DNA of 64,000 nucleotides from an uncultured Acidobacteriota bacterium (GCA_963809485.1 CAWEJX010000012.1:32001-96000); one strand, 5' to 3'; shown: positions 41,640 through 64,000, counted from the first letter of the stretch. The notes: generated by a model not told the origin, from the sequence alone. Program-made: numbers and translations.

Positions 41640-41827
41640 AGCAGACTCCTTCTCCTTTCAAAATGGCTTGGTGCCAATGCGATTATATCCGCAAAACACA
41701 CAAAAGACACATCACAGTATATTCGTGTGGCCGGAGGAGTGATTCATACCCTTCCAGAGTCCCTTGCCTATGAGCCCTAATCAGGGGATCGTTCGCGGGA
41801 AACACCCCTGGTTCTATTATTTGCAGC

Positions 41828-43255
<1,428 letters not shown>

Positions 43256-43480: not shown

Positions 43481-43688
43481 GTATCGGAAGTTGGGATTGT
43501 AGCCGCAGGCGAGACGGGGAGGAGTCTGAGTGCATGGAGGCTTCCATACCTCCCCGGCCCTTATGGGATTTCTGCAACCCGACGATGGTTGATATTTGGC
43601 CTTGCATCCAATAGAATGGCTCACTCTCGAATGATTGCCTCATTTTGCCGGGGATCTGTTAGCTCACTTTGAATGGAGAGGTAATGCA

Positions 43689-44207
43689 TTGGCCAACGCG
43701 AGAAATTTGAAAGCACACAAAATGGAAGATAGGGAATACGATTTGTGGATTCTCATTAGTCGCGTATATCATATGGTAGCCAAGCTCAGGAATATGGAAA
43801 TGAACAAGCAGGGCATTTTGCCCGTTCAAGCCTATATGTTATTTATTATTCAGGCCATGGGCAATGCGACCACCCCGGCGGAACTGTCCCGCTTTGTCTA
43901 CCAACAAAGAAACTCCGTTTCTGATATTCTCAAACGAATGGAAAAGCAAGGCTTGGTAACCAAGGAAAAAGCGTCGAAAGGGAACGGAAGAATTCTGGTC
44001 AAGATAACTGAAAAAGGTAAAAAGGTTCTTCAGCTATCCAAGCAGAGAGAGCACCTTCACAATGTTATGTCTGTTTTGAGCAAGGGAAAAAGAGGACAGC
44101 TCGAGTCGCTGTTGGAGTTGCTGAGGGATAGAGCCATTAAGGAACTTTCGATTTATCAGAAGACTGTGCTTCCACCCTCCCAATTATCCAGATATTATCA
44201 AGAATAG
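43689..44207 (+). CDS. MarR-family transcriptional regulator
   Basis: TPAELSR...SVSDILKRMEKQGLVTK...ITEKG winged helix. Confidence 0.9.
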   Translation: MANARNLKAHKMEDREYDLWILISRVYHMVAKLRNMEMNKQGILPVQAYMLFIIQAMGNATTPAELSRFVYQQRNSVSDILKRMEKQGLVTKEKASKGNGRILVKITEKGKKVLQLSKQREHLHNVMSVLSKGKRGQLESLLELLRDRAIKELSIYQKTVLPPSQLSRYYQE

Positions 44208-44246
44208 ATCGGGTCGAGATGCGATCGCGGATCCAATATTCATGGA

Positions 44247-44693
44247 TTAGGGCTTGGCTTTCGAACCTATTGAATATAGCTGGACCAACTTCGCCGCCTT
44301 GCGCGGGTCACTTTCCAAAAAGACTTTGACCTTTGTTATCTTGATGTCTTTATCAGCGCCAATTTTCAGATTATAGAGGACGTTCATTTTCAGTTCCAAA
44401 AGTACTTCGCCGGTTGCTCTTTCAATAGCCTGTGTCTTGAGCAACGCACCCACCTCTTTCTGCCTCTCATCAACAATGAGGTGCTCAACCAGCAATTTGT
44501 CCTGAATGGCGGGATGAGCAAGGCATCTTTCATACCATTCAGCGCGGCTTTTCACCACATCGTCATCAAACGTAAGGTCTGGCGCATAAAATTTGTCCAT
44601 GACATGCTGAGTCTCAGGAAGCTGGCCATATTGGCTGTACGCCAGGACGTACTCTTCCATGAAACGAACTATGTCGCTGTATAGAGATTCCAT
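44247..44693 (-). CDS. Hypothetical protein, NTF2/SnoaL-like
   Basis: 148-aa last gene of the operon; KFYAPD...HLIVDE pattern. Confidence 0.6.
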   Translation of the reverse strand: MESLYSDIVRFMEEYVLAYSQYGQLPETQHVMDKFYAPDLTFDDDVVKSRAEWYERCLAHPAIQDKLLVEHLIVDERQKEVGALLKTQAIERATGEVLLELKMNVLYNLKIGADKDIKITKVKVFLESDPRKAAKLVQLYSIGSKAKP

Positions 44694-44763
44694 GTTTTCA
44701 CCTCAACTTTTCCTTTGTGGCCGCTGTCGAGGCGACCCTGTCTTCTACTCACTCACGATTATG

Positions 44764-46483
44764 CTATTTAATGGTTGGGCTTTCCCATCCTTTATTTCTT
44801 TCCAACAAGTCTCGCCAATTCCCGGGCAACACGATCGGCTTTGTTACAAAATGGGCCGGGCCATATCCAAAGGTGCTGATATAGCTAATCCCATAAGGCC
44901 CCGCACCTCCCGTAACGCAGATCTTTATACTACCGGGCCCGGCGAGCAAGGGTATCAGGGCATCAGGGCCTGACTTGCAGCGATTCCCTGATACGTTCTG
45001 GCAAGCGACCAAAGGCCGGCATTTCTGCTATATCTCTGCCGTTAAGAAAATCAGAACTCGGTATCTGAATGGCATCATAGAGAGCTTTTTGCAGATCGAG
45101 TCTCGAATATCCTTCTCTGCGGATGCAGTCCAGAGTAGCTCCACAAATGACCACAAGGTTATCCATTCCCCAGTTTCCGGCAAGCCTGTCGTGCTTCACC
45201 TTTCCTTGTTTAGCGATATACTCCACTATCCGTTTTACGGTCGGCGGTTCCGGTTGCACGATATCGGGCTGCCACGACATGGCCGGCATGACGCTGATTG
45301 TGGCCTGATCAAGACCATAGCCTTCTGCCACCCGAAGCGGCTCCCATGCTCCACCCAACGCAGTTTCATTTTCCGCAATCAGAGAAACAGACTTAAACGG
45401 GCTGCCCAGCGTTTTCATATCATTCTTGCCCGGCCAGGTATGTCCCAGATTGGTCATTATTAGTCTTACCGCGCGGGCAATCGTGGCATTCGCTCTCCAT
45501 CCCGGGCTTAGAGTGCCGAAGCTGCAATTGATGTTCAGATCCTGAATCAATCCCGGGCCGCTGACGATTAATAACGGCGCCATATTGCATGAAGTGCATT
45601 GAACCTCCCTGAGGTTGAATGCAGGATCGGTGATAGCTTCAATCGCTGCTATAACAACCGGCATGTAATGAGGAAGACACCCCGCCATGGCAGCATTGAT
45701 TGCAATATCTTTTACTGTGGCCTTTATGCCTCCGGGTTCAACAATCCCGACCACATGGTCCGAAGCGAAGTCAACACCCTCAAGCATTTGGCTCACTGCG
45801 CCCGGCGTGGGCGGCACCAGGGGCAGGCCGTCACTCCAACCGTGCCGGAGAAAATATTTCTCCATGCTTTCGCGCGCTGTTTCGTAATCGCTGCCGCTGA
45901 AGGTCAGAGTTCTTTCGGCCGTTTCGGTTTCCTCCCCGGGCTGCGGCTTCCATTGTGTCAGCGCCCTGATGACCTCATCCGCAGCCTTCTCCCCGAGTCC
46001 CAATTGCTCGATTTCCTCATTTAAGGGCAGAGAGTCCACCGGGACCACGGCGAGAGATATATCCGAGAGACCCTCGCGTCTGGCAATGAATCTGGCGTTA
46101 GCCTCGAACGGCCTCGTCACCATAAAGGCGACAGGTTTGCCCAATTTCTCCAGGTCAACCGCCTCACGTGCGGTCCTCGCCGAGCTGGTTCCCGTAAAAC
46201 CAAGGAGGACGATAATGCCGTCGCTGTACTCGGCGATTTCTTTGGATCTTGCCTCTCTGAGCTCCGGTGCTACGAAGGCGGGCCACTCGCGAAAATCGAT
46301 TCTGCCGACCCGTTTTTTCAATGCACTTTCAAGCTGCGGGAGCAATGCCTCTGCCAAACCCGCCCCGGTTCCGAACTTCAGCACACCGATCTTTTTTCCG
46401 TGCAGGCTTTGCAGACGAGGTGAAGGAGAGACCATGCGGAGAGTTTGAAATTCGCCTCTTGGATTGTATACCGTCAATTCCAC
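44764..46483 (-). CDS. UGSC-family paralogue without Sec/Cys (TGTS in place of UGSC; +1 frameshift near 44985)
   Basis: DGIIVLLGF-TGTS-SART...LEKLGKPVA; GWSDGLPLVPPT, AINAAMAGC. Confidence 0.85.
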
Positions 46484-46586
46484 TTGTGCTGTTTGGCATA
46501 AAAGGCACCCATGCTCATTTGGTATGCAGGATTGATAGGAGCGCTATGAATGGCTGAAACCATATTGCCATCCCGCCATAGTTGCC

Positions 46587-47814
46587 TTATGAGGTCATTG
46601 GACCGAATGCGCCCGCCATCAGGAATCCATCAAATTCGGCTTCTGACATCCCCAAAATCTCAAGGCAAATGTATTCATTGTGTTCGCCCAAAACGGGGGC
46701 CTCCCGAAAAAGCTTTGCGGGAGTCATGGATAATCTGGATGGCTGTCCCAAATAGGAGAACTCTCCCAGTTCTTTGTGATTTCCTCTCCAGAAACATTCT
46801 CTTTCTCTTAGTTGCACTATCGCTGCAAATATCTTTTGCATCTTGCACGACTCCCGCGGCAACTCCCTCCTGCTGCAGCAGAACCATGATATGTTCAGGC
46901 TCGTATTGGGATGTCCATTGCTCCACAAGATGGTTTAGCCTTGCTTCGTGTTTCTTCCTTTCCGGAAGCGTCGAGAATTCAGGGGCTTTTGTCCATTCCG
47001 GATTTCCCATGGCTTTACACATGGATTGCCACTCATCGTCCGTAAAGACAGTGATTGCGCACCAACGGTCCTCGCCTTTGCAGCGAAAGACTCCATGCGG
47101 GGCGGCATATTCGCAGGAGTTGCCGTTGGCTCTTGCCTCCATGCCGCTTGTTGAATAATCAAGCAGAAGCGGGGCTATGAGCTGCAAGCCGGATTCGAAC
47201 TGGGATACATCAATCAACTGACCTTTGCCCGTTTTGTTCCTGTGGTCGAGGGCGCTTATCAGGGCGCTTGCTGCAAAATGGGGGACGCAATAATCCGTAT
47301 AGGCCACCATTGGGGATATCGGTTCTTCGTCCGGAAAGCCTACGAGATTGACGATTCCTCCCAGCCCATTAATGTGGTTTCCCAGGCCGGGCTGAGTCGC
47401 CGAAGGCCCTGTCAGGCCCTGATTGGAGCTTCGAATCATGATGATATCCGGCTTGATCCTGCTCAATTCATCATAGCCCAGGCCCCAGCTTTCCAGCACG
47501 CCGGGCCTGTGGCTGTCAGCCACAACGTCCGCCCAGGCCACCAGTTTTTTTGCGATTTCTTTCGCGACCGCATTTTTTAGATCGAGGCTGATGCTGTATT
47601 TATTGGCTGCAAAATAGCTGAAAAATCCGGCCCGGTTAATGTTTGTTACGCCATCCTTAAAAGGAGCGGAAGTCCGCAGCAGGTCCGGCCTCTCGATGGA
47701 TTCGATGCAGATAACGGTTGCACCGTAATCGGCCAAATATTTAAGGGTCAGCGGACCGGCAATGGCCCACCCGAAATCAATCACATTAATTCCGGCAAAG
47801 ACCTTTGGATCCAA
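46587..47814 (-). CDS. Class III CoA-transferase (CaiB/BaiF), catalytic-type subunit (+1 frameshift near 46815)
   Basis: AGP...LADYGATVI, AYTDY with conserved Asp, APVLGEHN. Confidence 0.9.
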
Positions 47815-47841
47815 GCGAGTTCCTTCCTTTCACCCAAATAT

Positions 47842-49096
47842 CTAGATAATTCCGGATTGCTGCAAGAGCACCAGATCTCTTTTTGAAAAACCCAGTTCCT
47901 TTTCATAAATTTCCAGGTTGTGTTCCCCGGGCAAAGGAGCTTTCTTCAAGCCTTGTGAGCGGCGTTTCGGATAATTTTGCGAAGGGTCCGGGATAGGTAA
48001 TCTGTGCCGGAATTTCCGGATAATCAACTTTTGCCCAGAAGTTCCTGGCATCCAATTGTGTGTTTTCAAATATGTCTCGAGCTGTGGACACAGGGCAAAG
48101 CATTATCTTTCTTTTTAAGGCCTGGCCATACAATTCGGCCTTTGTGTATTTCAAAAAAAGCTCCGCGATCGGCGCCTCCATCTGTTCCTGCATTTCCTGT
48201 GTCTGTCTGGACATGTCAAACGCAGTCCAATCGAAATTGGCCATAAGCTCCGAGGCCAAACCCTCTTCCTGCAGCCACGCCGCGATGGCGCGATTGGTCT
48301 TGAGACCGAAATCACCGCCCAAAATATAAAAAATGACGTATCCGTCCTTGCACCGCCACAATAGCTTCTGCTTTGTGTCCGTCCATCGGCCCGAGAGATA
48401 GGATCCTGCGCGCTTGAGAATTTTATGATTCAACTCCCATAGCGGAACGGCATTGGAGAGCTCCCACAGAACACACTCCTGCGCCGACACATCGACATAT
48501 TGCCCTTGCCCGGTTTTTTCACGATAGAAATAGGCGATAAGGCTCGCAGCCGCCGCATGGGCACTGGCTAACAAAAATGACTGCGGAAAACTTATTCTCA
48601 CGGGAGGCGCATCCGGTTTCCCTGTTATGTACAACAGTCCACTCATAGCCATGACCACGAGGTCGGATGCCTTGAAGTTCTTGTAGGGCCCCGTTTGTCC
48701 AAACGGGCTGATCGAGGTATAGATCATGCGGGGATTGAGTTGATTGAGATTGGCATATCCCAGCCCCAATTCATCCATGTATCCCGGCGGGAAGGACTCG
48801 ATTAGGAAATCGGCATGGTTCACGAGAGTCTTGAGAATCTGCTGCCCATCCGCAGAATCGAGTTTCAGCGTTATGCCTCGTTTGTTTGCATTGTAGGCCA
48901 ACCATACAAGGCTTCTTTCCGGCGCCGGAGTTTGGCGATAAAAGGGGCCGATGCGCCTGTCCGGATCGCCTCCAGGCTTTTCAATTTTTATGACGTCTGC
49001 TCCCAGGTCCGCCAGAATCCTGCCGCACAGGTAGCCGTTATTGTTAGTTAAATCCAGCACTCGCGGCGATCGAGCCAGACATTTCTTCTCTTCCAT
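47842..49096 (-). CDS. Class III CoA-transferase, BbsE-like subunit (+1 frameshift near 47940)
   Basis: LADLGADVIKIEKPGGD, NANKRGITL; catalytic Asp position reads PQSF. Confidence 0.88.
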
Positions 49097-49100
49097 CCGA

Positions 49101-50285
49101 TTAGTTTCCTTTAGGGCGTAATCGATTATCCAGCGGGGAGAAATTATTCTTCCTGGACGGCAGAGCCACAATCGCATAGCCGGGCATTACATTTTCATGC
49201 CTTTGATTTATCGCGGATCGTTCGATACGAACGCAGGAATCTCCGTCGGCATCCATGAACTTTTCGGTAACCTTGCCCTTGATCCAAACGACGTCCGATA
49301 AATATACGAACTTATTGTATTCCGTATAACTTCTCTTCAGCCAGCCATCGTCTCCCATCCAATTGGTGATCAGTTGAACGGCCCAGCAGTGCCTTTGAAC
49401 GCCGACATCGTAGGAGTGCGGAAGCCCCATGGCATTGGCCGCGGCCCGGTTATAATGAACGGCAAAAATCGGTTCGAGCGCTGAGGTGTTGGGATCCCGG
49501 AAAGCCCAGGCCGGATGCTTTTGATAGGATCGCAAAGCCACACCGTGGGCCTGCAATCTCGGGATAGGGACTCCTCCGCCGATAACGTAAGCTATTTCAT
49601 CCGTGACTCCGAGCGGCCCTTTGACCACCGGTTTAAGCTCATCCCCGATTTCAACGTCTTCCCAATACCGCGGGTTGGAGCCTCGGATTTCCTCGGAAAG
49701 AATTTCCTGTTCAATCTGCTGCAATTGTTCCTCGGTCCAGGGATGCGGCAATTCGATGTGAGCGTGCCTTTTTTTCTCGCGGGCCTTAGCCCTGGCAAAA
49801 TGAACCACCCACCAGCGATACCTGGCGATTAGATCCCCGTTCTGGTTCCAATATTGATTTTGAAAATGATCTATCACGGTTTCGTCAGCATAGCTGCTTT
49901 CCTTCGGCCCCTCAAAACTCTTGAATACGCACTCTGCCGATATTTTATCCCCTATATAGATCGGCTTCATGAATTCCACATCGCAGCCCGCATGAAAGCC
50001 TCCCAGTCCTCTCCAGCCAAATATTACATGCGCAAAACAGGCCCAGACAAAGGAAGGAGGAGCCACGATGCGGCCATACGGGCTATTTTGGGCATATTCC
50101 TTATCACTCCATAGAGGATTCACATCTCCTACGCCCTCGATGAATTTGAGAATCGCCATTCTGGATGCATACTCGTTGTGCGTGCTTTCGTCTATCCGCA
50201 GCGAGAGGCCCAGTTTGGCGCGCATTCCCTCTATCATTTCCTTGGTGATTGTCGAATCCGGCATCACCACCTTTTTTTCGGTCAT
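49101..50285 (-). CDS. Double hot-dog MaoC-like acyl-CoA (de)hydratase
   Basis: GDVNPLW...IVAPPSF, YWEDVEIGDEL, VHYN...YDVG, ITNWMGDDG. Confidence 0.85.
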   Translation of the reverse strand: MTEKKVVMPDSTITKEMIEGMRAKLGLSLRIDESTHNEYASRMAILKFIEGVGDVNPLWSDKEYAQNSPYGRIVAPPSFVWACFAHVIFGWRGLGGFHAGCDVEFMKPIYIGDKISAECVFKSFEGPKESSYADETVIDHFQNQYWNQNGDLIARYRWWVVHFARAKAREKKRHAHIELPHPWTEEQLQQIEQEILSEEIRGSNPRYWEDVEIGDELKPVVKGPLGVTDEIAYVIGGGVPIPRLQAHGVALRSYQKHPAWAFRDPNTSALEPIFAVHYNRAAANAMGLPHSYDVGVQRHCWAVQLITNWMGDDGWLKRSYTEYNKFVYLSDVVWIKGKVTEKFMDADGDSCVRIERSAINQRHENVMPGYAIVALPSRKNNFSPLDNRLRPKGN

Positions 50286-50334
50286 CAGCCACCTCTTCAG
50301 CACGATCCGATCGTTCCAGCTGTATGCTTTGGAT

Positions 50335-51693
50335 CTATACCTCGCCAATTCCAATACCAAAATGTTTTCTCAGTTCAGTGACATAATCCGGATCCATGCA
50401 CCCCGCCTGTTGTTTTTCCAGCAAATCTACTCGTGTGGGCCTTCCGGGTGGGAACTCGGGCGTCCTGGAAATGACCTTCTCCTGCTCCAGATGCGCAAGG
50501 TCCTGCTTCGACATGCCCAACAAGGAACAAAGAACGTATTCGTTGTCCTCTCCAAAATGAGGAGCTCGTTTCAGTGCAGATTTCTTGAATCCCCGGAACT
50601 TTGCCGGTATCTGGCTGGGTATCGGTCTCTTACCTATGCCCTCCCCGTGGTCGACACACTGAAAGAAGCCTCGCTTCATGAGGTGAGGATTCAGGTTGAT
50701 TTCTTTCATGTTGAGCGCCGGCCCGGCCGGAATTCTCAACCTCTGCAGGGTATACAATACTTCGAATTTGTCCCGCCGAGCAGTCCATTGCTCAATGAGG
50801 CAATCCAATTCAGGTTGCCTTGCAAGCCTGGCCTGCCTGGAGGAGAATGCCGGGTCCCTTAAGGCTTCCGGCTCATGAATCTCCCGGACGAAGCGTTTCC
50901 ATTGGCTATCGGTTTCTATGGCAATCGCCACCCATTCGTCATCTCCCTTACAGCGGTAACAGCCGTGAGGGGCACATCCCGGATGACGATTGCCCATGCG
51001 TTTCCGGTCGCGAGTGTTCAGGATGTAATCGAGAACTATGTCGCCCAGATGACAAATGGTGGCTTCTCTTCCGGAAACATCCACGTACTGTCCCTTGCCG
51101 GTTTTCCTCTGATGGAAAAGTGCGGTCATCAGCGCCATGGCGGCATGTGCGCCCGTAACCCAATCCCCGTATGCGAAACCGGACAGAAGCGGGGGCTCAT
51201 CAGAATTGCCGGTGTTGTGCGTCAAACCACTCATCCCCTCCATGCCCGGCACATACATATAGTAGTCTTTGAGGGGGCCATCGTGTCCCAAACCGCTGAT
51301 TGAAACCATGATGATTCGAGGATTGATCTTCTTTATGCGTTCGTAGTTCAATCCCCAATTGGTCATGACCCTGGGCGAATAGTTCTCAATGACTGCGTTG
51401 CTCACTTTTAGCAGCTGCCTGAAGATATCGCGTCCTTCTTCGGTGGCCATGTTGAGTGAAATGGCCCGTTTGCCTGCATTGAGGGAGTGAAACAGGCAAC
51501 CGCGGTTCCAGGGATCGGTGCCCGGGTTGTTATCGGGATAGACATTGGCTCGCGTAAATACGTCGGGGCGTTGCCATGATTCTATCTTGATAACTTCAGC
51601 CCCCAATTCGGCCAGTATCTTGGTGGCAACGGGACCCGCAAAAACCATGGTCAGATCGATAATCCTGATGCCCTCTAAAATCTTGTATGCCAT
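50335..51693 (-). CDS. Class III CoA-transferase, catalytic-type subunit
   Basis: LEGIRIIDLT, AGP, AYGDW with conserved Asp. Confidence 0.93.
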   Translation of the reverse strand: MAYKILEGIRIIDLTMVFAGPVATKILAELGAEVIKIESWQRPDVFTRANVYPDNNPGTDPWNRGCLFHSLNAGKRAISLNMATEEGRDIFRQLLKVSNAVIENYSPRVMTNWGLNYERIKKINPRIIMVSISGLGHDGPLKDYYMYVPGMEGMSGLTHNTGNSDEPPLLSGFAYGDWVTGAHAAMALMTALFHQRKTGKGQYVDVSGREATICHLGDIVLDYILNTRDRKRMGNRHPGCAPHGCYRCKGDDEWVAIAIETDSQWKRFVREIHEPEALRDPAFSSRQARLARQPELDCLIEQWTARRDKFEVLYTLQRLRIPAGPALNMKEINLNPHLMKRGFFQCVDHGEGIGKRPIPSQIPAKFRGFKKSALKRAPHFGEDNEYVLCSLLGMSKQDLAHLEQEKVISRTPEFPPGRPTRVDLLEKQQAGCMDPDYVTELRKHFGIGIGEV

Positions 51694-51708
51694 TCTCGTC
51701 CCGATCGT

Positions 51709-52914: not shown

Positions 52915-52958
52915 AAAATCACGCTGACTTGCCGGCAACAGAGATGTTCGTACCATAA

Positions 52959-52970
52959 TACGTATACGTA
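52959..52970. promoter_or_regulatory. Palindromic operator candidate (TACGTATACGTA)
   Basis: Perfect 12-mer, 45 nt upstream of the CoA-transferase ATG. Confidence 0.65.
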
Positions 52971-53035
52971 CATGGCGGCTTTCAACAGGCATCCTGTGGT
53001 TCGGTTGAATCGAGTCTGCATATAAATTGGCCGTG

Positions 53036-54761: not shown

Positions 54762-54851
54762 TCTCCCGATCTCGCCGTGGATACACGGCTTTCAGCATAT
54801 TCGCCTCAAAAAACCGATCCTCTCTATCCCAATGCAATTGGCGGATACACC

Positions 54852-56594: not shown

Positions 56595-56598
56595 TGCA

Positions 56599-57624
56599 TT
56601 ATTTCGGCCGGATCCCTTTCGAATAATTCACCCGGCCTACATAGAATTCCTCCTCAGGCTCGCGCGGCGTTACACCTGCCCTTTTCAGGCCTGCCCGCAT
56701 GGCATCCTTCAAGCGCTGGAACAGGAATGACGTCGGTTTCCTGAACATGCCTCCATTCCCGCCAGTCAGCCACTGCATGTATTTCATTCCCAGCATCCCG
56801 CCCTGAAACGCGGCATCCCGGGCGCCCATAATTATCGGAGTCAGCTCCCAGTAGAGTTCCATCCCTTTGGAGAACTCTCCTTGAGCGAACAGATTGAACA
56901 TCCGGACTATTCTTGGATTCTCCGCTGTCTGGTCGAAGATTACGTAGTCGGCCGGCCCCGCCCACTGTTGTCCGTATTTGGCGACAGTGATCGGCCATTC
57001 CGCCATTTCTGCGGCCTGAAGCAGCACTTGATCGCCGACACGATGGTGAACGTCAACCCACTTTCCAAGGCCGTCACTGAGATAGGCCTTTATTGCCACT
57101 ACGTTGGGTATTTGACAGATTCTCTCGATGAGCGCCGGATTGAACATGCTTGGATGAAATCTTCCGAAATCGTAAAAAGGTTTCGGCCAGAGATCGACAG
57201 CGAGGTTGATGGAATCGCATATCTTTTGGGTGACGCGATAGATGTCCTCTTCCGATTTGGCATAAAAGTTGCCCGGCCAGCCCAAAAGAGTGTGGGTTCC
57301 GCCCACGCTTTCGAAATAATTCAGCAATTCTATCGATTGATCGGCATCGTCAAGGGCTCCGAACATGGACACAAGAACTTTGCCCTTGGCTTCTTCAGCG
57401 ACAATTCTTACAAATTGCCTGCGCTCTTCATTGCTCAAAGCGCTGACTTCTAAGGCGCAAAATACGCTGAACATGCCTTTTTCTATGTTGTGCCTGACGT
57501 CGTGCCGGATCCCTTCCTCATCCAGCGCCTCGAGGTCCGGAGTGTACGAGGGTTGAATGACTCCATCCAATCCGCGATAGTGCTTTTTGGCCCATGCCTT
57601 CGCTTCTGGTTTTGTAAATTCCAT
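56599..57624 (-). CDS. DHDPS-like class I aldolase/lyase
   Basis: TPDL..LDEEGIRHDV, EER, IPNVVAIK Schiff-base Lys; lacks GTTGE. Confidence 0.85.
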   Translation of the reverse strand: MEFTKPEAKAWAKKHYRGLDGVIQPSYTPDLEALDEEGIRHDVRHNIEKGMFSVFCALEVSALSNEERRQFVRIVAEEAKGKVLVSMFGALDDADQSIELLNYFESVGGTHTLLGWPGNFYAKSEEDIYRVTQKICDSINLAVDLWPKPFYDFGRFHPSMFNPALIERICQIPNVVAIKAYLSDGLGKWVDVHHRVGDQVLLQAAEMAEWPITVAKYGQQWAGPADYVIFDQTAENPRIVRMFNLFAQGEFSKGMELYWELTPIIMGARDAAFQGGMLGMKYMQWLTGGNGGMFRKPTSFLFQRLKDAMRAGLKRAGVTPREPEEEFYVGRVNYSKGIRPK

Positions 57625-57696
57625 AAACAGCTCCTTGCAGTGGTGATAACGCGTTTTATCCGTTATCGCATATACATAGGTGTCTTCTATTTCGTG

Positions 57697-58743
57697 TCAT
57701 GCCTCATATTTTTTGAGCCTGTAACCTTTTGCATAATTTACGCGGCCCACATAAAACTCCTCCTCCGGCTCACGCGGAGTAATTCCCAGGGCTTTCATAC
57801 CGGCCCTGATGGCATCCTTTTGATAATCGTACAGACGGCCTGTAGGCTGCCGGACGGTTCCGCCATTTCCGCCGGCGCACCAGTGAGCGTATTTATCCGA
57901 TAGAGCGGTCACGATGCCGGTGTGAAAGTAGGAATCCGCCAACGACCCCTGTGCGCCCGGCCGGGACATCCCCCAGAAGATATCCATAGCCTTGTCGATC
58001 TCGCCCTTGATTAAATTGTCGAATATCCTCACGATTCGCGGATTCTCAGGAGTCTGCATACAATAAAAAGGCCCTGCGCCGGCCCACTGCTGCCCGTACT
58101 TCGGGATAGTGAAAAACCATCTGTCCGGCATCGGATCACTGACCAGGATTCGATCACCGCAAAGATGGAAAGCCTGAATGGTGAGTGCAAGGGAACTGCC
58201 GCCGGTGACTTTCATCGCCACGACGTTGGGGATGTCGCAAATTCGGCGCATCACGTCCGGCGGGAAATAACTTGGATGGAAATGCCATGTGTGCAGCCGG
58301 CCGGGATAAAACGTTATTGCCAGGTTGGTGGACTCGCACATGAATTTATACATCTGGAAAATGTCTTCTTCCGACCGGGGGTAATATTGCACCGGATGGG
58401 CAAGCGTGACATGAGTGCCGCCGACCTTTTCGATATGATGCAGCATCTCGATATCCTGCTCGACCGTGTCCTGCATGACGCTTACGGAACTGTGCATTTT
58501 GCCTTTGGCTTCGTCGCAGACTATCTGCACGAATTGCTTCCGTTCCTCGAATGTCATGCCGCAGGCCTCGGGCGCAGCCATTATCGAAGTAAAGCCATTG
58601 GCGTAAATCTGGTTGACATCGAAACGGATGCCATCGTCATCCAGCTTTTCAAGGTCGGGAGTGAAAGAAGGGAAAATCGGCACTTCCAGGCCTTTCATAT
58701 GCTTCTTTGCCCACAATTTAGCTTCTGATTTGGTGTATTCCAT
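57697..58743 (-). CDS. DHDPS-like class I aldolase/lyase
   Basis: IPNVVAMK; paralogue of the neighbouring gene. Confidence 0.85.
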   Translation of the reverse strand: MEYTKSEAKLWAKKHMKGLEVPIFPSFTPDLEKLDDDGIRFDVNQIYANGFTSIMAAPEACGMTFEERKQFVQIVCDEAKGKMHSSVSVMQDTVEQDIEMLHHIEKVGGTHVTLAHPVQYYPRSEEDIFQMYKFMCESTNLAITFYPGRLHTWHFHPSYFPPDVMRRICDIPNVVAMKVTGGSSLALTIQAFHLCGDRILVSDPMPDRWFFTIPKYGQQWAGAGPFYCMQTPENPRIVRIFDNLIKGEIDKAMDIFWGMSRPGAQGSLADSYFHTGIVTALSDKYAHWCAGGNGGTVRQPTGRLYDYQKDAIRAGMKALGITPREPEEEFYVGRVNYAKGYRLKKYEA

Positions 58744-58809
58744 ATTTGTCTCCCCGGTCCGATTGCAGATTTCCGATTGAATAAGGTCTATTCAATCCGC
58801 GACCCGCGG

Positions 58810-59863
58810 TTATTCAATCACCCTGGTAATAGAGCCATTCCCAAAGGTTGGAATAAAGCATGAATGCTTTCCCGGTCCACCCAAAACCATTACGACAAAG
58901 TCATCCTTATGGGCGATCGGCATCCATTCACAGTCTGTAAATTCACCATACTTTTCAGGGAATTTTCTCCTGTACTGGAGATTTTCTTCAGACAAACTCT
59001 TTTTAGAGAAGCGAGCATTTTCAAAAAGAAATTCCCTAATCTGCTCCTTTGAAAATCCGTCTTTGGCGATCGCCGCTGCATGTTCCGGGCACAGCATCAA
59101 GACAGGTTCGCCGGTGAAAAAAAGCGCATTGTTGCTGCCCGGTTGAGCCATAGTAGCGGCAATGGTCCTCAATAAGTCTTTGCCAAGGACACTGTTATGT
59201 TCATTGATATTGTGGGGGCCTTCCGCAGCAAACACAGTGACCGTGCTATCCCCGGCTTTGAAAGCCTCTCTCAACATGGAAAGGCTGCCACGGACTTTCC
59301 TCTTCGTTTTCGGCAACGCAGTAGGTGTATTTTCCAGGCTGACCCTGCGTGGACTTGTCGATCTCGCCCGGCATGGCCCCTCCGATGTTGATCAGGATCA
59401 ACCTGACGGCGCGGCCTATGGTTGCATTGGCTCTGACTCCAGGTCCGAATGCATTGCCTTTGCCGTTCAATCCTATTCTTTGCGCGATGGGACCGTTGAC
59501 CACGATCAAGGGACTGCAGGGATGCGTTGTTGATTGCACGCCCCGGAGCCCGAATTTCTCATCAGACATCGCCTTCAGGGCAGCGACAATCACCGGCAAA
59601 TACTCGGGCAGGCATCCAGCCATCACGGCATTGATGGCAGTCTTTTCCAGCGTGGCGGCTCCCATCCTTGGAGGAAGGATCGCCACAACTTCCTGCGGAT
59701 CCCCATTGCCGATAGCGGACAGCATTCTGCGTACCCGCTCCTCCGTGGGTGCGATGATCGGCAGGCCGTCGCTCCAGCCAAACTTGATGAAGGCGTTGTT
59801 TACAGCGTCTTCACAATTCTCAACGCGAACTTTTTTCGATACCAGCCTGCGGACGTTTTCCAC
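58810..59863 (-). CDS. Stand-alone C-terminal domain of the large UGSC proteins (+1 frameshift near 59255)
   Basis: GWSDGLPIIAPT, AINAVMAGC, RANATIGRA, QPGKY, ENEEESPW, GGPG. Confidence 0.85.
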
Positions 59864-59884
59864 CGGAGATCACCTCTGCATGAA

Positions 59885-60763
59885 TCAGGCGCTCAATCCG
59901 AGCAGTTTGGCCGGATTTTTCTTGGCCATCAGGGTAATTTCTTCCTCGCCTATGCCATATTTAATCAAAGTGACTATAAACATTCTCATGCCTTCGACAG
60001 GCAGCGGGTTCCATATTTGCCCGAGATCCGTCGACATAATGCACTTTTCGGCGCCCACTGCCTTGATTACGTCCACCATCTCGGCGGGATCATGTCTGAA
60101 CTCGGATGCCTGGAAGGCCAGGAAGGTGCACTCGATAAAAGCGCCGTTCTTTGCCAGCTGAATCAGATCCTGCTTGGTGAAAGCCTCGGAAAAAAACTCG
60201 TGATCCAGAGGATGCGTGACCACAAATTTATCGATGCCCAATCTGCGGGCTTCCGCTTCCAGGGCAAACGTCTCGGTCGGCGACATGTGCCCGCTTGCCA
60301 GAACCATATCGTGTTTCTTGATGATCGGGAGCATCGGACCGATCTCCGGCACCAGGCGCCCCTTGCTATCCAGGATCGAGTACCCCTCTCCTTTAAGGGG
60401 AAGCCCGAGTCCTCTCATTTTGGAAATGGAGTTGGTGGATGAGAATGTCGGCATCCAGACCACGCGCGCCCCTGCTCTCGCGGAATATTCGACCGCATAC
60501 ACATTCAATCCGCCCATTTCATAGTCCAGGCAGACGCTGCCAAATGCGGTGAAATCAGGAACCAGCTGGTTCACCATCATCGCTATTGGAGCGGACGGGT
60601 AGAAGTGGTTTTTTATGACGAAGGCTTTCATCCCGGCCTGCTTCGCCTGATTGGCAGCTTCCAGTGCATCCACCCGGCATTTGAAGGCGTCGGGGCCGGG
60701 ATGAAAATGCATATCGATGGATCCTGACAGCAATTCGTCATAGTCAATGATCTTCATGGCCAT
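59885..60763 (-). CDS. DUF6282-like amidohydrolase-fold metalloprotein
   Basis: IDMHFHPGPD, IKNH, LASGH, VTHP, STDLGQ, NPAKLLGL. Confidence 0.8.
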   Translation of the reverse strand: MAMKIIDYDELLSGSIDMHFHPGPDAFKCRVDALEAANQAKQAGMKAFVIKNHFYPSAPIAMMVNQLVPDFTAFGSVCLDYEMGGLNVYAVEYSARAGARVVWMPTFSSTNSISKMRGLGLPLKGEGYSILDSKGRLVPEIGPMLPIIKKHDMVLASGHMSPTETFALEAEARRLGIDKFVVTHPLDHEFFSEAFTKQDLIQLAKNGAFIECTFLAFQASEFRHDPAEMVDVIKAVGAEKCIMSTDLGQIWNPLPVEGMRMFIVTLIKYGIGEEEITLMAKKNPAKLLGLSA

Positions 60764-60774
60764 GTGTGCTCTCC

Positions 60775-61318
60775 CTATCGCGTGCCGACAAGCACCGCGA
60801 CTATGGTATCAACAGCATTTTCAGCCTTTTTTCGCACTTCCTCCGGGGTAACGCCTGCAAGGGGATGCGGAATCGTAACCAGGCGCGGAGCCGATATCCC
60901 CCTGGCCATGTGAAACTGATTTGGCCAACGACAGGAATGCATCGCTGCAAATGATGGCCGTCGGAATCCCTCTCTTTTCCAATTCTGTCGAATCGTGGAT
61001 ACTCCACGATGTGCAGGAACCTCAATCGCAGATCCCATAAACAATGGCGTCACATTTGGGCGCAAGCTGCTTCATCTCTTCCGGAGTCAGGGGAACCGTC
61101 GCGCCGGTCCCTCCTTTTTTAATGTGGACAATCTCCGCAAATTGAAATTTTTGACGGAGTGCTGCTTCCACATGATCCAAAAAAATATCGAAGTTGGGTT
61201 TGCGGTTATCCACCAAGCCGATGACCTTGCCATTCAGGTCATCCAGACACATTGCGATGTGTTCTTGTTTTACAGTCGTGGTTGCAGTCGGATCCAATAC
61301 TTCGATATATTCTTTCAC
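60775..61318 (-). CDS. Small UGSC selenoprotein (Sec TGA at 61022-61024; +1 frameshift near 60912)
   Basis: CDAIVYGICD-TGA-GSCTSWSIHDSTELEKRGIPTAII ... PRLVTIPHPLAG. Confidence 0.88.
60981..61021 (-). promoter_or_regulatory. Bacterial SECIS-like element
   Basis: ATCGTGGA-GTA-TCCACGAT 8-bp stem; loop begins with G, 19 nt after the TGA. Confidence 0.8.
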
Positions 61319-61353
61319 TCTATTCGCCCTGAAATGTCGGAATTCCAAAAACT

Positions 61354-62274
61354 CTACAGTTGATCCATCAGCCTTTGTATCGCGATTGCTGCCGTCGCGC
61401 CATCTCCTACTGCAGTGACTATCTGTCCCCGGGAATTGCTTCGGATGTCACCCGCCGCGAAAATATTGGGGAGGTTTGTTTGCATCATTTCATTCACCAG
61501 AATGCGTCCCTGGTTGTCGAGTGACAGTAGATTTCTGATAAAGCCGGTGTTCGGATCGGTTCCCACGGCGATCAGGACGCCATCGATACTGAGGGTTTCG
61601 GTCTTTTGTGTCGCCCTGTCGTAAATCTCAACCGCTTCAACCTTGCCGCTACCTGATATCTTGACCAGCTCTGCGCCGCATCGAAGCTCGATCTTGCTAT
61701 TGGAACTAATCCTTTCCTTGAGAACCGCGGAAGCGGAAATCGTCCCTTCGACCTCGATCAGATACACTTTGGCTGCGATCCTGGCCAGGTAGAGAGCCTC
61801 GGTGACGCCCCTGTCTCCGGCGCCGCATACAACCACTGTCTTATCGTGAAACTGACCGCCGTCACAAAGAGCGCAATCAAATACGCCCTTCTCCTCCAGT
61901 TCCCGCTCCCCGGGTATATTCAGTTTCCTGGGACGGCAGCCGCTGGCAATTATCAGCACTTTAGCCGTGAAGTATCTCCCGTCGGTCAGCTGCACGCAGG
62001 TCGATTCGGAATACGATTCGATCCCGGCGACCTCGGCCATTTCCATCTGCAGGCCCGAGTTGACGGCCTGGATCGTCATTTCCGAAGCCAGCTGGGGCCC
62101 TGCGACGCCGTCACTGAATCCGGGATAATTCTCGATCCAGTCGGCATTCTTAATGCTGCCGCCAAAACCATCCTTATCAACCAGCAGGGTCCGATACTTG
62201 CCCCGGCTCAAATAGAGGCCGGCCGTAAGCCCCGCAGGGCCTCCACCAATTATTATGGCATCAAAGTCCCACAT
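61354..62274 (-). CDS. Thioredoxin reductase-like flavoprotein with non-canonical NAD(P)H site
   Basis: IIGGGPAG, IENYPGF, CALCDG, FAAGD; GAGDRG and IEVEG instead of GGGxxA and HRR. Confidence 0.92.
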   Translation of the reverse strand: MWDFDAIIIGGGPAGLTAGLYLSRGKYRTLLVDKDGFGGSIKNADWIENYPGFSDGVAGPQLASEMTIQAVNSGLQMEMAEVAGIESYSESTCVQLTDGRYFTAKVLIIASGCRPRKLNIPGERELEEKGVFDCALCDGGQFHDKTVVVCGAGDRGVTEALYLARIAAKVYLIEVEGTISASAVLKERISSNSKIELRCGAELVKISGSGKVEAVEIYDRATQKTETLSIDGVLIAVGTDPNTGFIRNLLSLDNQGRILVNEMMQTNLPNIFAAGDIRSNSRGQIVTAVGDGATAAIAIQRLMDQL

Positions 62275-62461
62275 CGATTCCTCCTCTCGGTCTTGCGCAT
62301 GCCGGAGGATGGCCGGACAATTGGAACTCCCAAGTGACGGGAGTATGCCTCAGGCGGAGGAGCTGATCCCTGATCAGGATGCACCCCGCTGAGCCAATCG
62401 GATCATTTACCCGAAGCTATTGACAAAAATCATAAACTACTTTATATCTAACCTACATTAT

Positions 62462-62475
62462 GTACGTATACGTAC
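62462..62475. promoter_or_regulatory. Perfect 14-bp palindrome GTACGTATACGTAC, operator candidate
   Basis: In the AT-rich divergent promoter region, downstream of TTGACA at 62420. Confidence 0.7.
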
Positions 62476-62716
62476 TAGGGTACGAATAATTTTTTCTTAT
62501 CATACGTAAAGCTTGGTTTAAAATCAAAATAAAAGGAAAATGAAGGTCAGGTCGCGCATCCGCTGAACCAATGATCTTGTTTTCGAGAATGTTTTCCGCA
62601 GCCGGGCATCCTGGGAGCCTGGACGGTTTCAATGCATTTATGAATGGAATCAATTCCAAAACCAACAACTGGAAAGATACCGTGATTCTCGACTGGCGGG
62701 ATAAGGTGGCTGGGGG

Positions 62717-62960
62717 ATGGAACCGATCAATGAAGCCTCCATGGGGATGGCTTCGGTCCCCTGCTTCGATAGCGGGCTGATTTATGCCACGACGGACAAG
62801 TACTATCACGGGTGCAACGGCGGTATGCTGAGACAGCCGGTGCCGGGATTGTATGATTATCAGAAACCGAGGATTCGGGCATCTTTAACAGCCGGGGGAA
62901 TGACTCCGCGATAAGCTCAAGAAGAAAAGTTCTACGTAGGCAGGACCAATTATGCCGGAG
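62717..62960 (+). pseudogene. C-terminal remnant of a fourth DHDPS-like paralogue
   Basis: DKYYHGCNGGMLRQP..LYDYQKPRIRA...TPR*AQEEKFYVG matches the C-termini of the three intact paralogues. Confidence 0.75.
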
Positions 62961-63011
62961 GAGCGAGGTAAGGAACCAGGGTTCAATAAAACGTGGAGGG
63001 CGGAATAGAGA

Positions 63012-64000
63012 ATGGAATTTTCCAAGCATGATGCCAAGGACTGGGCAAAACAGAATCTGAAAGGACTGGAAGCAGTAATTTTCCCGTCATTTACACCGGA
63101 TTTGAAAGAACTCGACGAAGAGGGCGTTCGATACGATGTAAATCATCTTATTGCCAACGGTTTTACATCTGCATTGGTCGCGCCGGAAACCTGCGGAATG
63201 ACTTTTGAAGAGCGAAAAAGGCTTGTCGAAATAGTGTGCGACGAAGCAAAGGGGAAAATACACACGTCGGTCGCTGTGATGCAGGATAGCGTCGAAGAAG
63301 ATATCGAGATGCTGCAGCATATCGAAAAAGTCGGAGGAACCTTTGCCTTGCTCGGCCACCCGGTACAGTACCATCCCCGGTCGGTCGAGGATATTTTCGG
63401 GATGTATAAACACATGTGCGATTCGACAAATATCGCGATAGTGTTTTACGCCGGTCGACTCCATACCAGGAAATTTCATCCGAGCTGTTTTCCTCCCGAG
63501 CTCCTGCCACGGATAGCCGATATCCCTAATGTTGTAGCCATGAAAGTCGGCGGAGGGAGTTCGATGGCAATCACGGTGATGTCTTTTCGTCTGTGCGGCG
63601 ATAAAATCCTGGTCAACGACCCGACGCCCGACAGGTGGTTTGTTACCGTGCCCCAATACGGTCAGCAATGGGCAGGCGCCGCGCCTTTTTACGCAATGCA
63701 AACTCCCGAAAGACCGCGTATGGTTAATATGTTTAATCTGCTGGTGAAGGGTGAAATAGATAAAGCAATGGATATTTACTGGGAGGCGGCTTCTCCTGCA
63801 GAAGGCGGAGAAGAACCGGCCGGCTCCTATTTTCATTCGGGTGTTGTTACCGCTTTGAGCGATAAATATTCACACTGGTGCAACGGGGGCAACGGCGGTA
63901 CCGTCCGGCAACCTACAGGCCGGCTCCACGACTACCAGAAAGAGAGGATAAGGGCAGGGCTGAGAGCGCTGGGATTTACTCCTCGTGAACCCGAAGAGGA
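63012..64000 (+). CDS. DHDPS-like class I aldolase/lyase, runs off the window (absent from the ORF track)
   Basis: MEFSKHDAKDWAKQNLKGLEAVIFPSFTPDL...IPNVVAMK; very similar to 57697..58743. Confidence 0.88.
   Translation, partial: MEFSKHDAKDWAKQNLKGLEAVIFPSFTPDLKELDEEGVRYDVNHLIANGFTSALVAPETCGMTFEERKRLVEIVCDEAKGKIHTSVAVMQDSVEEDIEMLQHIEKVGGTFALLGHPVQYHPRSVEDIFGMYKHMCDSTNIAIVFYAGRLHTRKFHPSCFPPELLPRIADIPNVVAMKVGGGSSMAITVMSFRLCGDKILVNDPTPDRWFVTVPQYGQQWAGAAPFYAMQTPERPRMVNMFNLLVKGEIDKAMDIYWEAASPAEGGEEPAGSYFHSGVVTALSDKYSHWCNGGNGGTVRQPTGRLHDYQKERIRAGLRALGFTPREPEE

What the first reader, a model, noticed from the sequence alone, without database searches (positions are those of the whole stretch)
43689..64000. 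Candidate undescribed selenoprotein reductase system: TrxR-like flavoprotein, GrdB-like UGSC selenoproteins, Sec-less paralogues, aldolases and CoA chemistry
Seen: one minus-strand run encodes TrxR-like -> small UGSC selenoprotein -> DUF6282-like -> stand-alone 'DGLP' domain -> 2 aldolases -> Sec-less paralogue -> large UGSC selenoprotein -> CoA-transferase pair -> MaoC -> CoA-transferase pair -> Sec-less paralogue -> NTF2-like protein. Known (recalled): the segment DAI.....UGSC.......ELEKRGIP...PRLVTIPHPLAG resembles the selenoprotein B subunit of glycine/betaine/proline reductases (UGTC...EIERAGIP...IPHPLG), which are coupled to reductive bond cleavage; I know of no assigned function for UGSC proteins. 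Inference: a Stickland-reductase-like enzyme that reductively cleaves a C-heteroatom bond in a CoA-activated or Schiff-base-bound substrate. The Lys aldolase-like proteins might play the role of the pyruvoyl subunits (GrdE/PrdA), which are absent here.
Basis: partly seen in the sequence, partly recalled or inferred. Interest (0 to 1): 0.92.

Follow-up and report, generated by a model that had tools for sequence, protein, structure and literature searches.

The report
GrdB-like selenoprotein operon, function unknown
A conserved soil-bacterium operon pairs a thioredoxin-reductase-like enzyme with selenium-containing proteins whose selenium site resembles that of the Stickland glycine/proline reductases; they belong to a family with about 40 selenium-encoding copies in this one genome, and its chemistry is still unknown.

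Summary
The gene run is real and in the stated order. It is conserved in related Acidobacteriota MAGs and partly in a Desulfobacterales and three Dehalococcoidales MAGs.

The UGSC domain (Pfam PF24696, a catalogued selenoprotein family of unknown function) is homologous to the Sec-bearing C-terminus of GrdB:
- BLASTP gives E 4e-8, with Sec aligned on Sec.
- hhalign gives probability 95%, against 7% or less for five controls.

No GrdE/PrdA or GrdA was found in the genome, so this is not a glycine or proline reductase. The constant partner of UGSC is an unnamed ~350-residue 'DGLP' domain with one invariant Cys, no Pfam model and no clear PDB fold match. It occurs fused to UGSC, or split, as here.

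TrxR-like, DHDPS-like and CoA-transferase genes are partners in this operon, not of the family at large.

The genome holds 58 UGSC matches, 40 with one in-frame TGA, and the expansion is genus-wide.

Six genes in the window are broken by single extra bases that no relative or read-derived contig shares. This is probably assembly error.

The reductive-cleavage mechanism stays an inference.

The parts
61354..62274 (-). TrxR-like flavoprotein, 306 aa, with a C-A-L-C-D-G redox motif in the sequence
   Evidence: TIGR01292 scores 311 bits, below its 343 cut-off. PF07992 scores 162 bits. It lies 5 nt upstream of the small UGSC gene.
60775..61348 (-). Stand-alone UGSC-domain selenoprotein (190 aa when intact). 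Sec codon at 61022-61024; SECIS-like hairpin at 60992-61010; extra base at 60909 breaks the frame.
   Evidence: PF24696 scores 136.9 bits in the window and 169 bits for the intact orthologue P0124. The hairpin has 2 compensatory pairs among 8 sequences. The extra base is absent in L001-L003 and in the runs laid.
59885..60763 (-). DUF6282 protein, 292 aa
   Evidence: PF19799, E 4.3e-61. No PDB relative by sequence.
58810..59863 (-). Stand-alone DGLP-domain protein (350 aa when intact, as in L002 = P0126). Extra base at 59260.
   Evidence: tblastn with paralogues shows a frame switch at 59258-59274. No Pfam or NCBIfam match. phmmer finds 5388 representative proteins.
57697..58743 (-). DHDPS/NAL-like protein 1, 348 aa
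   Evidence: PF00701, 32.5 bits against a cut-off of 22.1.
56599..57624 (-). DHDPS/NAL-like protein 2, 341 aa
   Evidence: PF00701, 40.5 bits. The Lys in '..VVAIKAY..' aligns with the K of '..SAVKE..' in DHDPS 2yxg.
54852..56594 (-). Sec-less UGSC-DGLP protein (580-aa ORF; homologues are ~573 aa). The motif position reads M-S-G-G-S.
   Evidence: PF24696, 84 bits. 898 homologues, all unnamed. AF2 model pLDDT 84.6.
53036..54761 (-). Sec-containing UGSC-DGLP protein (574 aa when intact, as in L002 = P0125). Sec codon at 54443-54445; extra base at 54479.
   Evidence: Hairpin at +10 to +37 after the UGA, without covariation.
51709..52914 (-). Family III CoA-transferase 1
   Evidence: PF02515, 7e-79. 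The orthologue in L002 is 401 aa.
50335..51693 (-). Family III CoA-transferase 2
   Evidence: PF02515, 9e-102.
49101..50285 (-). MaoC-like double-hotdog hydratase
   Evidence: PF13452 and PF01575. Weak PDB hit to hydratase ChsH1, E 9e-4.
47842..49096 (-). Family III CoA-transferase 3. Extra base at 47949.
   Evidence: PF02515, 7e-78. Frame switch shown. The extra base is absent in L134 and L135.
46587..47814 (-). Family III CoA-transferase 4. Extra base at 46816.
   Evidence: PF02515, 3e-93, with the C-terminal piece in another frame.
44764..46483 (-). Second Sec-less UGSC-DGLP protein (motif reads F-T-G-T-S). Extra base at 44981.
   Evidence: PF24696, 66 bits..
44247..44693 (-). 148-aa protein, possibly SnoaL/NTF2-like
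   Evidence: No Pfam match. Atlas feature lead of 0.93-0.96 to SnoaL-like clusters. 69-71% identical copies lie in Dehalococcoidales loci L010 and L011.
43635..44207 (+). MarR-family regulator, convergent with the end of the operon
   Evidence: PF12802, 4e-10. MarR also lies beside the module in L010 and L011.
63012..64000 (+). Third DHDPS-like gene, divergent from the operon and running off the window
   Evidence: PF00701, 41.6 bits.

Best explanation
This is a conserved catabolic operon built around UGSC-DGLP enzymes.

The UGSC domain is a Rossmann-like alpha/beta domain. Its second half is homologous to the Sec-bearing C-terminus of GrdB/PrdB, with Sec in the same U-x-x-C position. It most likely works the same way: a selenol acts as nucleophile or reductant and ends as a selenenyl-sulfide with the Cys three residues on. 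That selenenyl-sulfide is then re-reduced.

In this operon the re-reduction is proposed to run from NAD(P)H to the TrxR-like flavoprotein (which has a CALC motif), then to the stand-alone UGSC selenoprotein encoded 5 nt downstream.

The substrate-handling part is the DGLP domain. It has one invariant Cys in N-A-x-M-A-G-C and no known relatives. Here it is present once on its own and three times fused to UGSC (one copy with Sec, two without).

DUF6282, the two DHDPS-like proteins, two pairs of family III CoA-transferases and a MaoC hydratase process the carbon skeleton of an unknown organic acid.

Shown here: the gene order, the homology, the Sec decoding context and the recurrence of the neighbourhood. 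Inferred: the electron path, the role of the DGLP domain, the reductive chemistry and the substrate.
For: Homology to GrdB:
- BLASTP of small UGSC against GrdB gives 43% identity over 56 aa, E 4e-8, with Sec on Sec351.
- hhalign of 39 UGSC domains against 19 GrdB rows gives Prob 95.1, E 3e-8, aligning UGSC 99-189 with GrdB 342-428.
- Controls score far lower: reversed GrdB 1.3, GrdE 7.2, CaiB 0.2, DHDPS 0.1, TrxR 0.4.
- The UGSC HMM hits 19 of 19 GrdB sequences.
- Pfam UGSC on GrdB gives E 4e-4.

Sec decoding:
- The genome has tRNA-SeC, selB at 391 bits and selD.
- The TGA is conserved in orthologues.
- A hairpin after the UGA has 2 compensatory pairs.

Split and fused forms of UGSC and DGLP occur in one operon.

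The quartet TrxR-like, DUF6282, small Sec UGSC and DGLP recurs at about 30-43% identity in L060 and L064.

The operon order is kept in L001, L002, L003, L006 and L007.

Soil metatranscriptome contigs 95-99% alike lie on 19 of 30 bins. One crosses the TrxR/UGSC junction. This is a weak hint, because DNA carry-over is possible.
Against: - Two of the three fused copies here lack both Sec and Cys, yet they are highly conserved. The redox site is therefore dispensable for part of the family.
- A TrxR-like gene lies near UGSC-DGLP genes at only 2 places in the genome.
- The homology covers only about 85 residues.
- No GrdB or PrdB structure is solved, so fold identity could not be tested.
- The DGLP domain is unrelated to GrdE or to the GrdB N-terminal domain by hhalign (Prob 0.1 and 0.4).
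- No substrate is indicated.
- The genes in this very assembly are frameshifted.
Confidence: 0.55

Rival explanations
1. Stickland-type reductive lyase in the strict sense. The Sec attacks a carbon of a substrate held as a Schiff base on a DHDPS-like Lys, or as a CoA thioester, and cleaves a C-N, C-O or C-S bond. The DHDPS-like proteins replace the pyruvoyl subunit.
For: - GrdB homology.
- The DHDPS-like proteins keep the Lys that aligns with the DHDPS active-site Lys.
- A TrxR-like gene is in the operon.
- The DHDPS pair, DUF6282 and UGSC-DGLP recur together in L001-L010 and at G000 C20:1344-1351 kb.
Against: - Most UGSC-DGLP genes in the genome have no DHDPS-like neighbour. Such neighbours occur at 2 places only.
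- In L011 and L012 the same DHDPS pair and DUF6282 sit with a glycyl radical enzyme and no UGSC-DGLP gene within the locus.
- No pyruvoyl proprotein or GrdA was found.
Confidence: 0.2
2. General thiol/selenol oxidoreductase, as the reviews assume for UGSC proteins. On this view it is a thioredoxin-like redox carrier for repair or antioxidant defence and is not tied to a substrate pathway.
For: [quoted passage not shown]
- PMC13188914 (passages read) groups it with Trx-fold proteins.
- A TrxR-like gene is adjacent.
- One Atlas cluster of DGLP proteins is auto-named a thiol-disulfide oxidoreductase family.
Against: - The domain is fused to a large conserved domain.
- There are 58 copies per genome, sitting in varied catabolic clusters: Mo-hydroxylases, aldehyde:ferredoxin oxidoreductases, flavoproteins, esterases and amidohydrolases. 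This pattern suggests substrate-specific enzymes.
Confidence: 0.15
3. The DGLP domain is a non-redox enzyme (isomerase, hydratase or lyase) or a metal or cluster site. The UGSC domain is then a structural, regulatory or ligand-donating appendage rather than a reductant.
For: - The Cys of the DGLP domain is invariant whether or not the UGSC motif is kept.
- Stand-alone DGLP proteins are common: 77 of the 150 best representatives are 390 aa or shorter with no UGSC domain.
- There are weak fold echoes of class I (Fe-S) fumarate hydratase (Foldseek E 4.5e-3, TM 0.20-0.24).
Against: - Sec is costly to encode, yet 40 of 58 copies keep it.
- The U-x-x-C spacing matches GrdB.
Confidence: 0.2
4. In this particular strain the operon is decaying. 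The seven single-base insertions would then be real mutations and the genes pseudogenes.
For: - There are seven single-base insertions within 18 kb.
- Most paralogues elsewhere in the same assembly have long open frames.
Against: - At least four of the six gene-breaking insertions lie in short G or C runs.
- All are insertions of one base.
- None is shared by any of 5 related loci, or by any covering contig in 3 DNA runs.
- No run holding this exact strain was found; the best word share was 0.35. Reads of the strain itself were therefore not seen.
Confidence: 0.15

Closest known systems
Selenoprotein B of glycine/sarcosine/betaine reductase (GrdB) and PrdB of D-proline reductase (Pfam PF07355)
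   Same: - Sec sits in a U-G-S/T-C-T motif after a beta strand.
- It is followed by E-I/L-E-K/R-x-G-I-P and I-P-H-P-L-G/A.
- Sec aligns on Sec.
- A thioredoxin-reductase-type gene lies in the operon. That grd operons carry trxB is recalled, not tested here.
   Different: - Only about 85 C-terminal residues are shared.
- PF07355 does not match.
- No GrdE/PrdA or GrdA was found in the genome.
- The partner is the DGLP domain, which is unrelated to GrdE or to the GrdB N-domain.
- Some members lack Sec and Cys altogether.
UGSC family (seleno)protein (Pfam PF24696, NCBIfam NF041046; the 'UGSC-containing protein' of Zhang and Gladyshev)
   Same: The four UGSC-type genes here match PF24696 at 66-137 bits against a cut-off of 25. 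Two of them carry the UGSC Sec motif.
   Different: - The catalogued family is a ~150-190-aa domain of unknown function.
- Here it appears mainly as a ~575-aa fusion.
- It sits in a conserved operon with a dedicated TrxR-like gene.
- It is expanded to 58 copies in one genome.
- The 2008 paper notes a 'UGSC/Unknown_1 fusion'. Its supplementary figure could not be opened, so identity with the DGLP domain is unverified.
Glycyl-radical-enzyme gene clusters (PFL-like enzyme plus activase) in Dehalococcoidales loci L011 and L012
   Same: The same accessory set lies beside them at 57-73% identity: DUF6282, a DHDPS-like pair, the 148-aa protein, family III CoA-transferases, MaoC and MarR.
   Different: The key enzyme there is a radical enzyme, not a selenoprotein. 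That the two do equivalent jobs is only an inference.

Membership tests
UGSC family (PF24696 / NF041046) | Match to the family model above its cut-off | tested here: met
   PF24696 scores against a cut-off of 25 bits: small 136.9, 580-aa 84, large 71, 506-aa 66. The NF041046 equivalog cut-off of 125 is not reached; the best score is 108.8, for the frameshifted small gene.
UGSC family (PF24696 / NF041046) | Sec or Cys in the U-G-S-C motif | tested here: met
   Met for the small and large genes, with TGA at 61024 and 54445. The two Sec-less paralogues read S-G-G-S and T-G-T-S.
GrdB/PrdB (PF07355) | Match to PF07355 | tested here: not met
   No PF07355 hit for any UGSC protein at E up to 0.01, nor for P0124 at E up to 10. 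The model ends at the Sec position: GrdB matches it at residues 6-350 and its Sec is residue 351.
GrdB/PrdB (PF07355) | Sec in U-x-x-C aligned with the GrdB Sec, with shared flanking motifs | tested here: met
GrdB/PrdB (PF07355) | Pyruvoyl proprotein partner GrdE/PrdA (PF09338) in the genome | tested here: not met
   0 matches in G000, which is 95.7% complete. The same search found the family in 5 of 5 GrdB-holding genomes.
GrdB/PrdB (PF07355) | Selenoprotein A (GrdA, PF04723) in the genome | tested here: not met
   0 matches in G000. This model was not run on a positive control genome.
Thioredoxin-fold oxidoreductases | Thioredoxin fold of the UGSC domain | tested here: inconclusive
Low-molecular-weight thioredoxin reductase (TIGR01292) | Equivalog score and CxxC redox motif | tested here: inconclusive
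   The score is 311 bits, below the cut-off of 343.45. C-A-L-C-D-G is present in the sequence. Pyridine-nucleotide preference was not tested.
DHDPS/NAL class I aldolase family (PF00701) | Model match and Schiff-base Lys | tested here: met
   Scores of 32.5 and 40.5 bits against a cut-off of 22.1. The Lys of DHDPS-like 2 aligns with the K of DHDPS 2yxg. That this K is the catalytic one is recalled.
Family III CoA-transferases (PF02515) | Model match | tested here: met
   Four genes, E 7e-78 to 9e-102.

The most novel reading that the evidence does not exclude
UGSC-DGLP proteins are a new class of selenoenzymes. Each paralogue would be a substrate-specific reductive lyase that uses GrdB-type Sec chemistry without a pyruvoyl subunit. 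The class has diversified to about 40 Sec-encoding copies per genome in one wetland and soil Acidobacteriota genus, for anaerobic breakdown of recalcitrant organic acids. In Dehalococcoidales the same pathway would use a glycyl radical enzyme for that step.
Probability: 0.2. Interest if true: 0.9.

Novelty: new variant of a known kind. Interest (0 to 1): 0.74.

Why it matters
UGSC proteins are among the most abundant selenoproteins in aquatic metagenomes: 255 Sec sequences in the GOS survey. After about 20 years they still have no function, and the 2026 review still lists them as uncharacterised.

The results here give concrete handles for experiments:
- a tie to the only well-studied bacterial U-x-x-C reductases;
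- a candidate electron donor;
- an obligatory partner domain with one invariant Cys;
- a split form (UGSC and DGLP as separate proteins) suited to biochemistry.

A single family with 40 TGA-bearing copies in one genome would also put this Acidobacteriota genus near the largest bacterial selenoproteomes in print. Those are 57 and 63 genes according to PMC13188914 (passages read).

Tried and rejected
- **Fold searches, two-domain model.** Foldseek against the PDB gave only weak flavodoxin-like and FtsZ hits on the N-domain (best E 5.6e-4, TM at most 0.20).
- **Solved structures.** The tools also offer no model-to-model superposition.
- **Profile searches.** A profile search of the PDB with alignment A1 gave only chance-level FtsZ hits. 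hhalign of DGLP against GrdE and GrdB was negative.
- **RNA families.** Rfam has no match in the window.
- **SECIS folding.** The mean folding energy of the 63 nt after 36 UGA sites was -18.5, against -16.7 for shuffles (sd 4.5). This is not a convincing difference.
- **Promoter and terminator scan.** The counts were at shuffle level.
- **DUF6282.** No PDB relative by sequence.
- **Literature.** Searches for 'DUF6282' returned 0 papers. 'UGSC' with 'GrdB' returned 4 papers, which list both families; in the UGSC passages read from three of them no link between the two families is made, and their GrdB passages were not read. 'Acidobacteriota' with selenoprotein terms returned 3 papers; the one opened does not contain 'UGSC'.
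- **Supplement not seen.** Figure S1 of PMC2398784 could bear on whether 'Unknown_1' is the DGLP domain, but supplements are closed.
- **Sequencing runs.** No run held half or more of the words of the stretch (best 0.35). The source reads were therefore not examined.
- **Rows dropped before counts.** In one search, ORF pieces shorter than 540 aa or without a U at positions 90-210 were left out of the UGSC-domain alignment (38 of 65 used). GrdB rows L087 (identical to P0123), L094 and L107 were also left out.

Full report
**What is in the window**

The minus strand from 62274 down to 44247 carries 15 co-directional genes with short gaps. Family scans give them in this order:

| Position | Gene |
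|---|---|
| 61354-62274 | TrxR-like flavoprotein (TIGR01292 311 bits, below its 343 cut-off) |
| 60775-61348 | small UGSC-domain protein |
| 59885-60763 | DUF6282 (4e-61) |
| 58810-59863 | protein with no family match, carrying the 'W-S-D-G-L-P' motif |
| 57697-58743, 56599-57624 | two DHDPS-like proteins |
| 54852-56594 | 580-aa UGSC protein without Sec |
| 53036-54761 | UGSC protein with an in-frame TGA |
| 51709-52914, 50335-51693 | two family III CoA-transferases |
| 49101-50285 | MaoC-like double hotdog |
| 47842-49096, 46587-47814 | two more CoA-transferases |
| 44764-46483 | second Sec-less UGSC protein |
| 44247-44693 | 148-aa protein |

A MarR gene lies convergent at the end of the run. 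A third DHDPS-like gene lies divergent at its start.

**Frameshifts**

Six of these genes change frame in the window.

I aligned the window to related Acidobacteriota loci at about 83-95% identity: L001, L002, L003, and later L134 and L135. The window carries single extra bases at 60909, 59260, 54479, 47949, 46816, 46485 and 44981 that none of these loci has. In L002 every gene is open:
- the small UGSC is 190 aa with one TGA;
- the DGLP protein is 350 aa;
- the Sec-less fusion is 573 aa;
- the Sec fusion is 574 aa with one TGA.

I laid contigs of three metagenome runs on 53000-62400. Essentially every covering contig leaves out one base at each of the three sites in that stretch. At 54480/1 and at 59257-61 all of the depth lacks it in X1, X2 and X4. 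At 60909/10 all of it does in X2 and X4, and most in X1.

At least four of the six gene-breaking insertions lie in short G or C runs. I read them as consensus errors private to this assembly. Decay in this strain is not excluded, because no run holding the strain itself was found (best word share 0.35).

**Are the TGAs selenocysteine?**

- The genome has a tRNA-SeC, selB above its cut-off and a selD that itself carries a TGA.
- The TGA is conserved in frame in all orthologues found.
- Sequence is conserved on both sides of it.
- After the small gene's UGA there is an 8-bp hairpin at +15 to +33. Two of its pairs change on both sides in the distant copies L060 and L064.
- The large gene has a hairpin at +10 to +37 but no covariation.
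- A bulk energy test over 36 sites was not convincing.

**The GrdB link**

I took a genuine GrdB (PF07355 at 3.5e-156) from a Desulfobacterales genome and read it through its one TGA. It reads ...S-S-T-U-G-S-C-T-R-C-G...E-I-E-K-A-G-I...A-I-P-H-P-L-G.

| Test | Result |
|---|---|
| BLASTP, intact small UGSC protein against GrdB | 43% identity over 56 residues, E 4e-8, Sec on Sec351 |
| hhalign, 39 UGSC domains against 19 GrdB rows | Prob 95.1, E 3e-8; UGSC 99-189 on GrdB 342-428 |
| Control: reversed GrdB | Prob 1.3 |
| Control: GrdE | Prob 7.2 |
| Control: CaiB | Prob 0.2 |
| Control: DHDPS | Prob 0.1 |
| Control: TrxR | Prob 0.4 |
| HMM of this genome's UGSC domains against the GrdB set | hits 19 of 19 |
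| Pfam's own UGSC model on GrdB residues 325-425 | E 4e-4, 21 bits, just under its cut-off of 25 |

PF07355 stops at the Sec and never matches UGSC proteins. Neither GrdE/PrdA nor GrdA was found in this 95.7%-complete genome. The GrdE search worked in 5 of 5 control genomes. This is not a glycine or proline reductase.

**Fold**

**The DGLP domain**

This domain is the constant partner of UGSC.
- It has no Pfam or NCBIfam model, even at E 10.
- It has one invariant Cys, in N-A-x-M-A-G-C-x-P, plus invariant D, T, N, R and E-N positions.
- It is unrelated to GrdE or to the GrdB N-domain by hhalign.
- Modelled alone (pLDDT 76.4), it has no clear PDB neighbour.
- phmmer over 1.84 billion representatives finds 5388 proteins at E 0.001 or better, and 3792 at 1e-10 or better.
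- Of the best 150, 77 are 390 aa or shorter without a UGSC domain. Forty-nine are 391-480 aa, and 14 of those begin with the post-Sec half of a UGSC domain, which suggests gene calls truncated at the TGA. Nineteen are 481-600 aa and 5 are longer.

This operon encodes both the split form (small UGSC plus DGLP alone) and the fused form. That is a Rosetta-stone argument that the two domains work together.

**Recurrence of the neighbourhood**

Of 80 DUF6282 loci fetched:
- L001, L002, L003, L006 and L007 (Acidobacteriota) keep the order TrxR-like, small UGSC, DUF6282, DGLP, DHDPS. Those whose contigs reach further (L002, L003, L006, L007) continue with the fusions, and L002, L006 and L007 with CaiB and MaoC.
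- L009 and L018 (Desulfobacterales) keep parts of it.
- L004, L005 and L008 show a paralogous cluster that also exists in this genome at C20:1344-1351 kb.
- L060 and L064, at about 30-43% identity, keep TrxR-like, DUF6282 and a small Sec UGSC. L060 shows two DGLP genes after them; L064 has DGLP-type tblastn hits in the same place.
- L010 (Dehalococcoidales) has the DHDPS pair, DUF6282, the 148-aa protein, MarR and two UGSC-DGLP fusions.
- L011 and L012 have the same accessory genes at 57-73% identity, but next to a PFL-like glycyl radical enzyme and its activase. No UGSC-DGLP gene lies in the 20 kb held.
- About 60 further loci, mostly Dehalococcoidia and Bryobacterales at 35-47% identity, show none of the partners by tblastn.

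The carbon-skeleton genes are therefore a module that can serve different key enzymes.

**The family in this genome**

PF24696 matches 58 places. Forty have exactly one in-frame TGA, 17 have none and 1 has two. tblastn adds three tandem copies at C4:341659-348040 with a U-G-A-A motif. Most open frames are 560-670 aa.

Only 2 regions have a TrxR-like gene nearby and only 2 have DHDPS-like genes. Recurrent neighbours elsewhere are:
- molybdenum-hydroxylase large and FAD subunits;
- FAD_binding_2 flavoproteins;
- aldehyde:ferredoxin oxidoreductases;
- carboxylesterases;
- amidohydrolases;
- TonB-type outer-membrane proteins.

The expansion is genus-wide. All 24 same-genus genomes have 8-45 matches each, against 2 of 16 genomes from other families of the same class. 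The reviews read give 57 and 63 genes as the largest bacterial selenoproteomes (PMC13188914, passages) and 46 for isolates (PMC12013277, passages). None of the passages read mentions Acidobacteriota expansions or a UGSC-GrdB link.

**Expression**

One soil metatranscriptome run gave 14 contigs, 88-99% alike, over 19 of 30 bins. One crosses the TrxR/UGSC junction (61332-61660). Another crosses the Sec codon of the large gene and lacks the extra base. This is only a weak hint, since DNA carry-over is possible and contigs cannot show a single transcript.

**Verdict**

Most likely this is a GrdB-type Sec redox module working with an uncharacterised Cys-bearing catalytic domain. In this operon it is fed by a dedicated TrxR-like reductase and embedded in an organic-acid pathway. 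The chemistry and the substrate are unknown.

Noticed in passing
window 14337-16208 and 39871-41741: A 1.87-kb direct repeat at 96.5% identity. Each copy holds a Sec-type UGSC-DGLP gene (motif G-D-U-G-S-C-T-K-Y), with TGA at 15701 and 41234.
   Followed up: partly
G000 whole genome; densest in C12:46-215 kb: There are 58 PF24696 matches and 40 have one in-frame TGA. This one family alone approaches the largest bacterial selenoproteomes in print. Other selenoprotein families in the genome were not counted.
   Followed up: partly
L011:6530-9976 and L012:6537-9973 (Dehalococcoidales MAGs): A PFL-like glycyl radical enzyme and a radical-SAM activase sit directly beside DUF6282, the DHDPS pair, CoA-transferases and MaoC. 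These are homologous to the window's genes at 57-73% identity. This suggests a shared, horizontally moved pathway module with a different key enzyme.
   Followed up: partly
window 60909, 59260, 54479, 47949, 46816, 46485, 44981: Seven single-base insertions relative to all relatives within 18 kb. Most UGSC paralogues elsewhere in the assembly are open, so this region may be locally poorly polished.
   Followed up: yes
G000:C20:1216512-1216865 (L081); also four places in G005: Small ORFs of about 170-190 aa match only the last third of the GRDB model (PF07355 positions ~200-345). They are PrdB-like proteins of unknown role and were not read through for Sec.
   Followed up: no
G000:C4:341659-348040: Three tandem family members have the motif S-W-U-G-A-A-T, with no Cys at +3, so no U-x-x-C pair. 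Pfam's UGSC model did not report them.
   Followed up: no
window 41828-43255 (-): A 475-aa esterase (PF00756) lies just beyond the operon and MarR. Carboxylesterases also recur beside other UGSC-DGLP genes and in L010 and L011.
   Followed up: no
G000:C4:338451-340751 (L124): A 766-aa ORF combines a DruA-like domain with Tn5-type transposase domains. It lies next to the tandem UGSC-DGLP genes.
   Followed up: no
hhalign, UGSC 98-162 against GrdE 304-379: A weak match of the UGSC profile to GrdE (Prob 7.2, E 0.005). It scores above the other controls but is not significant.
   Followed up: no
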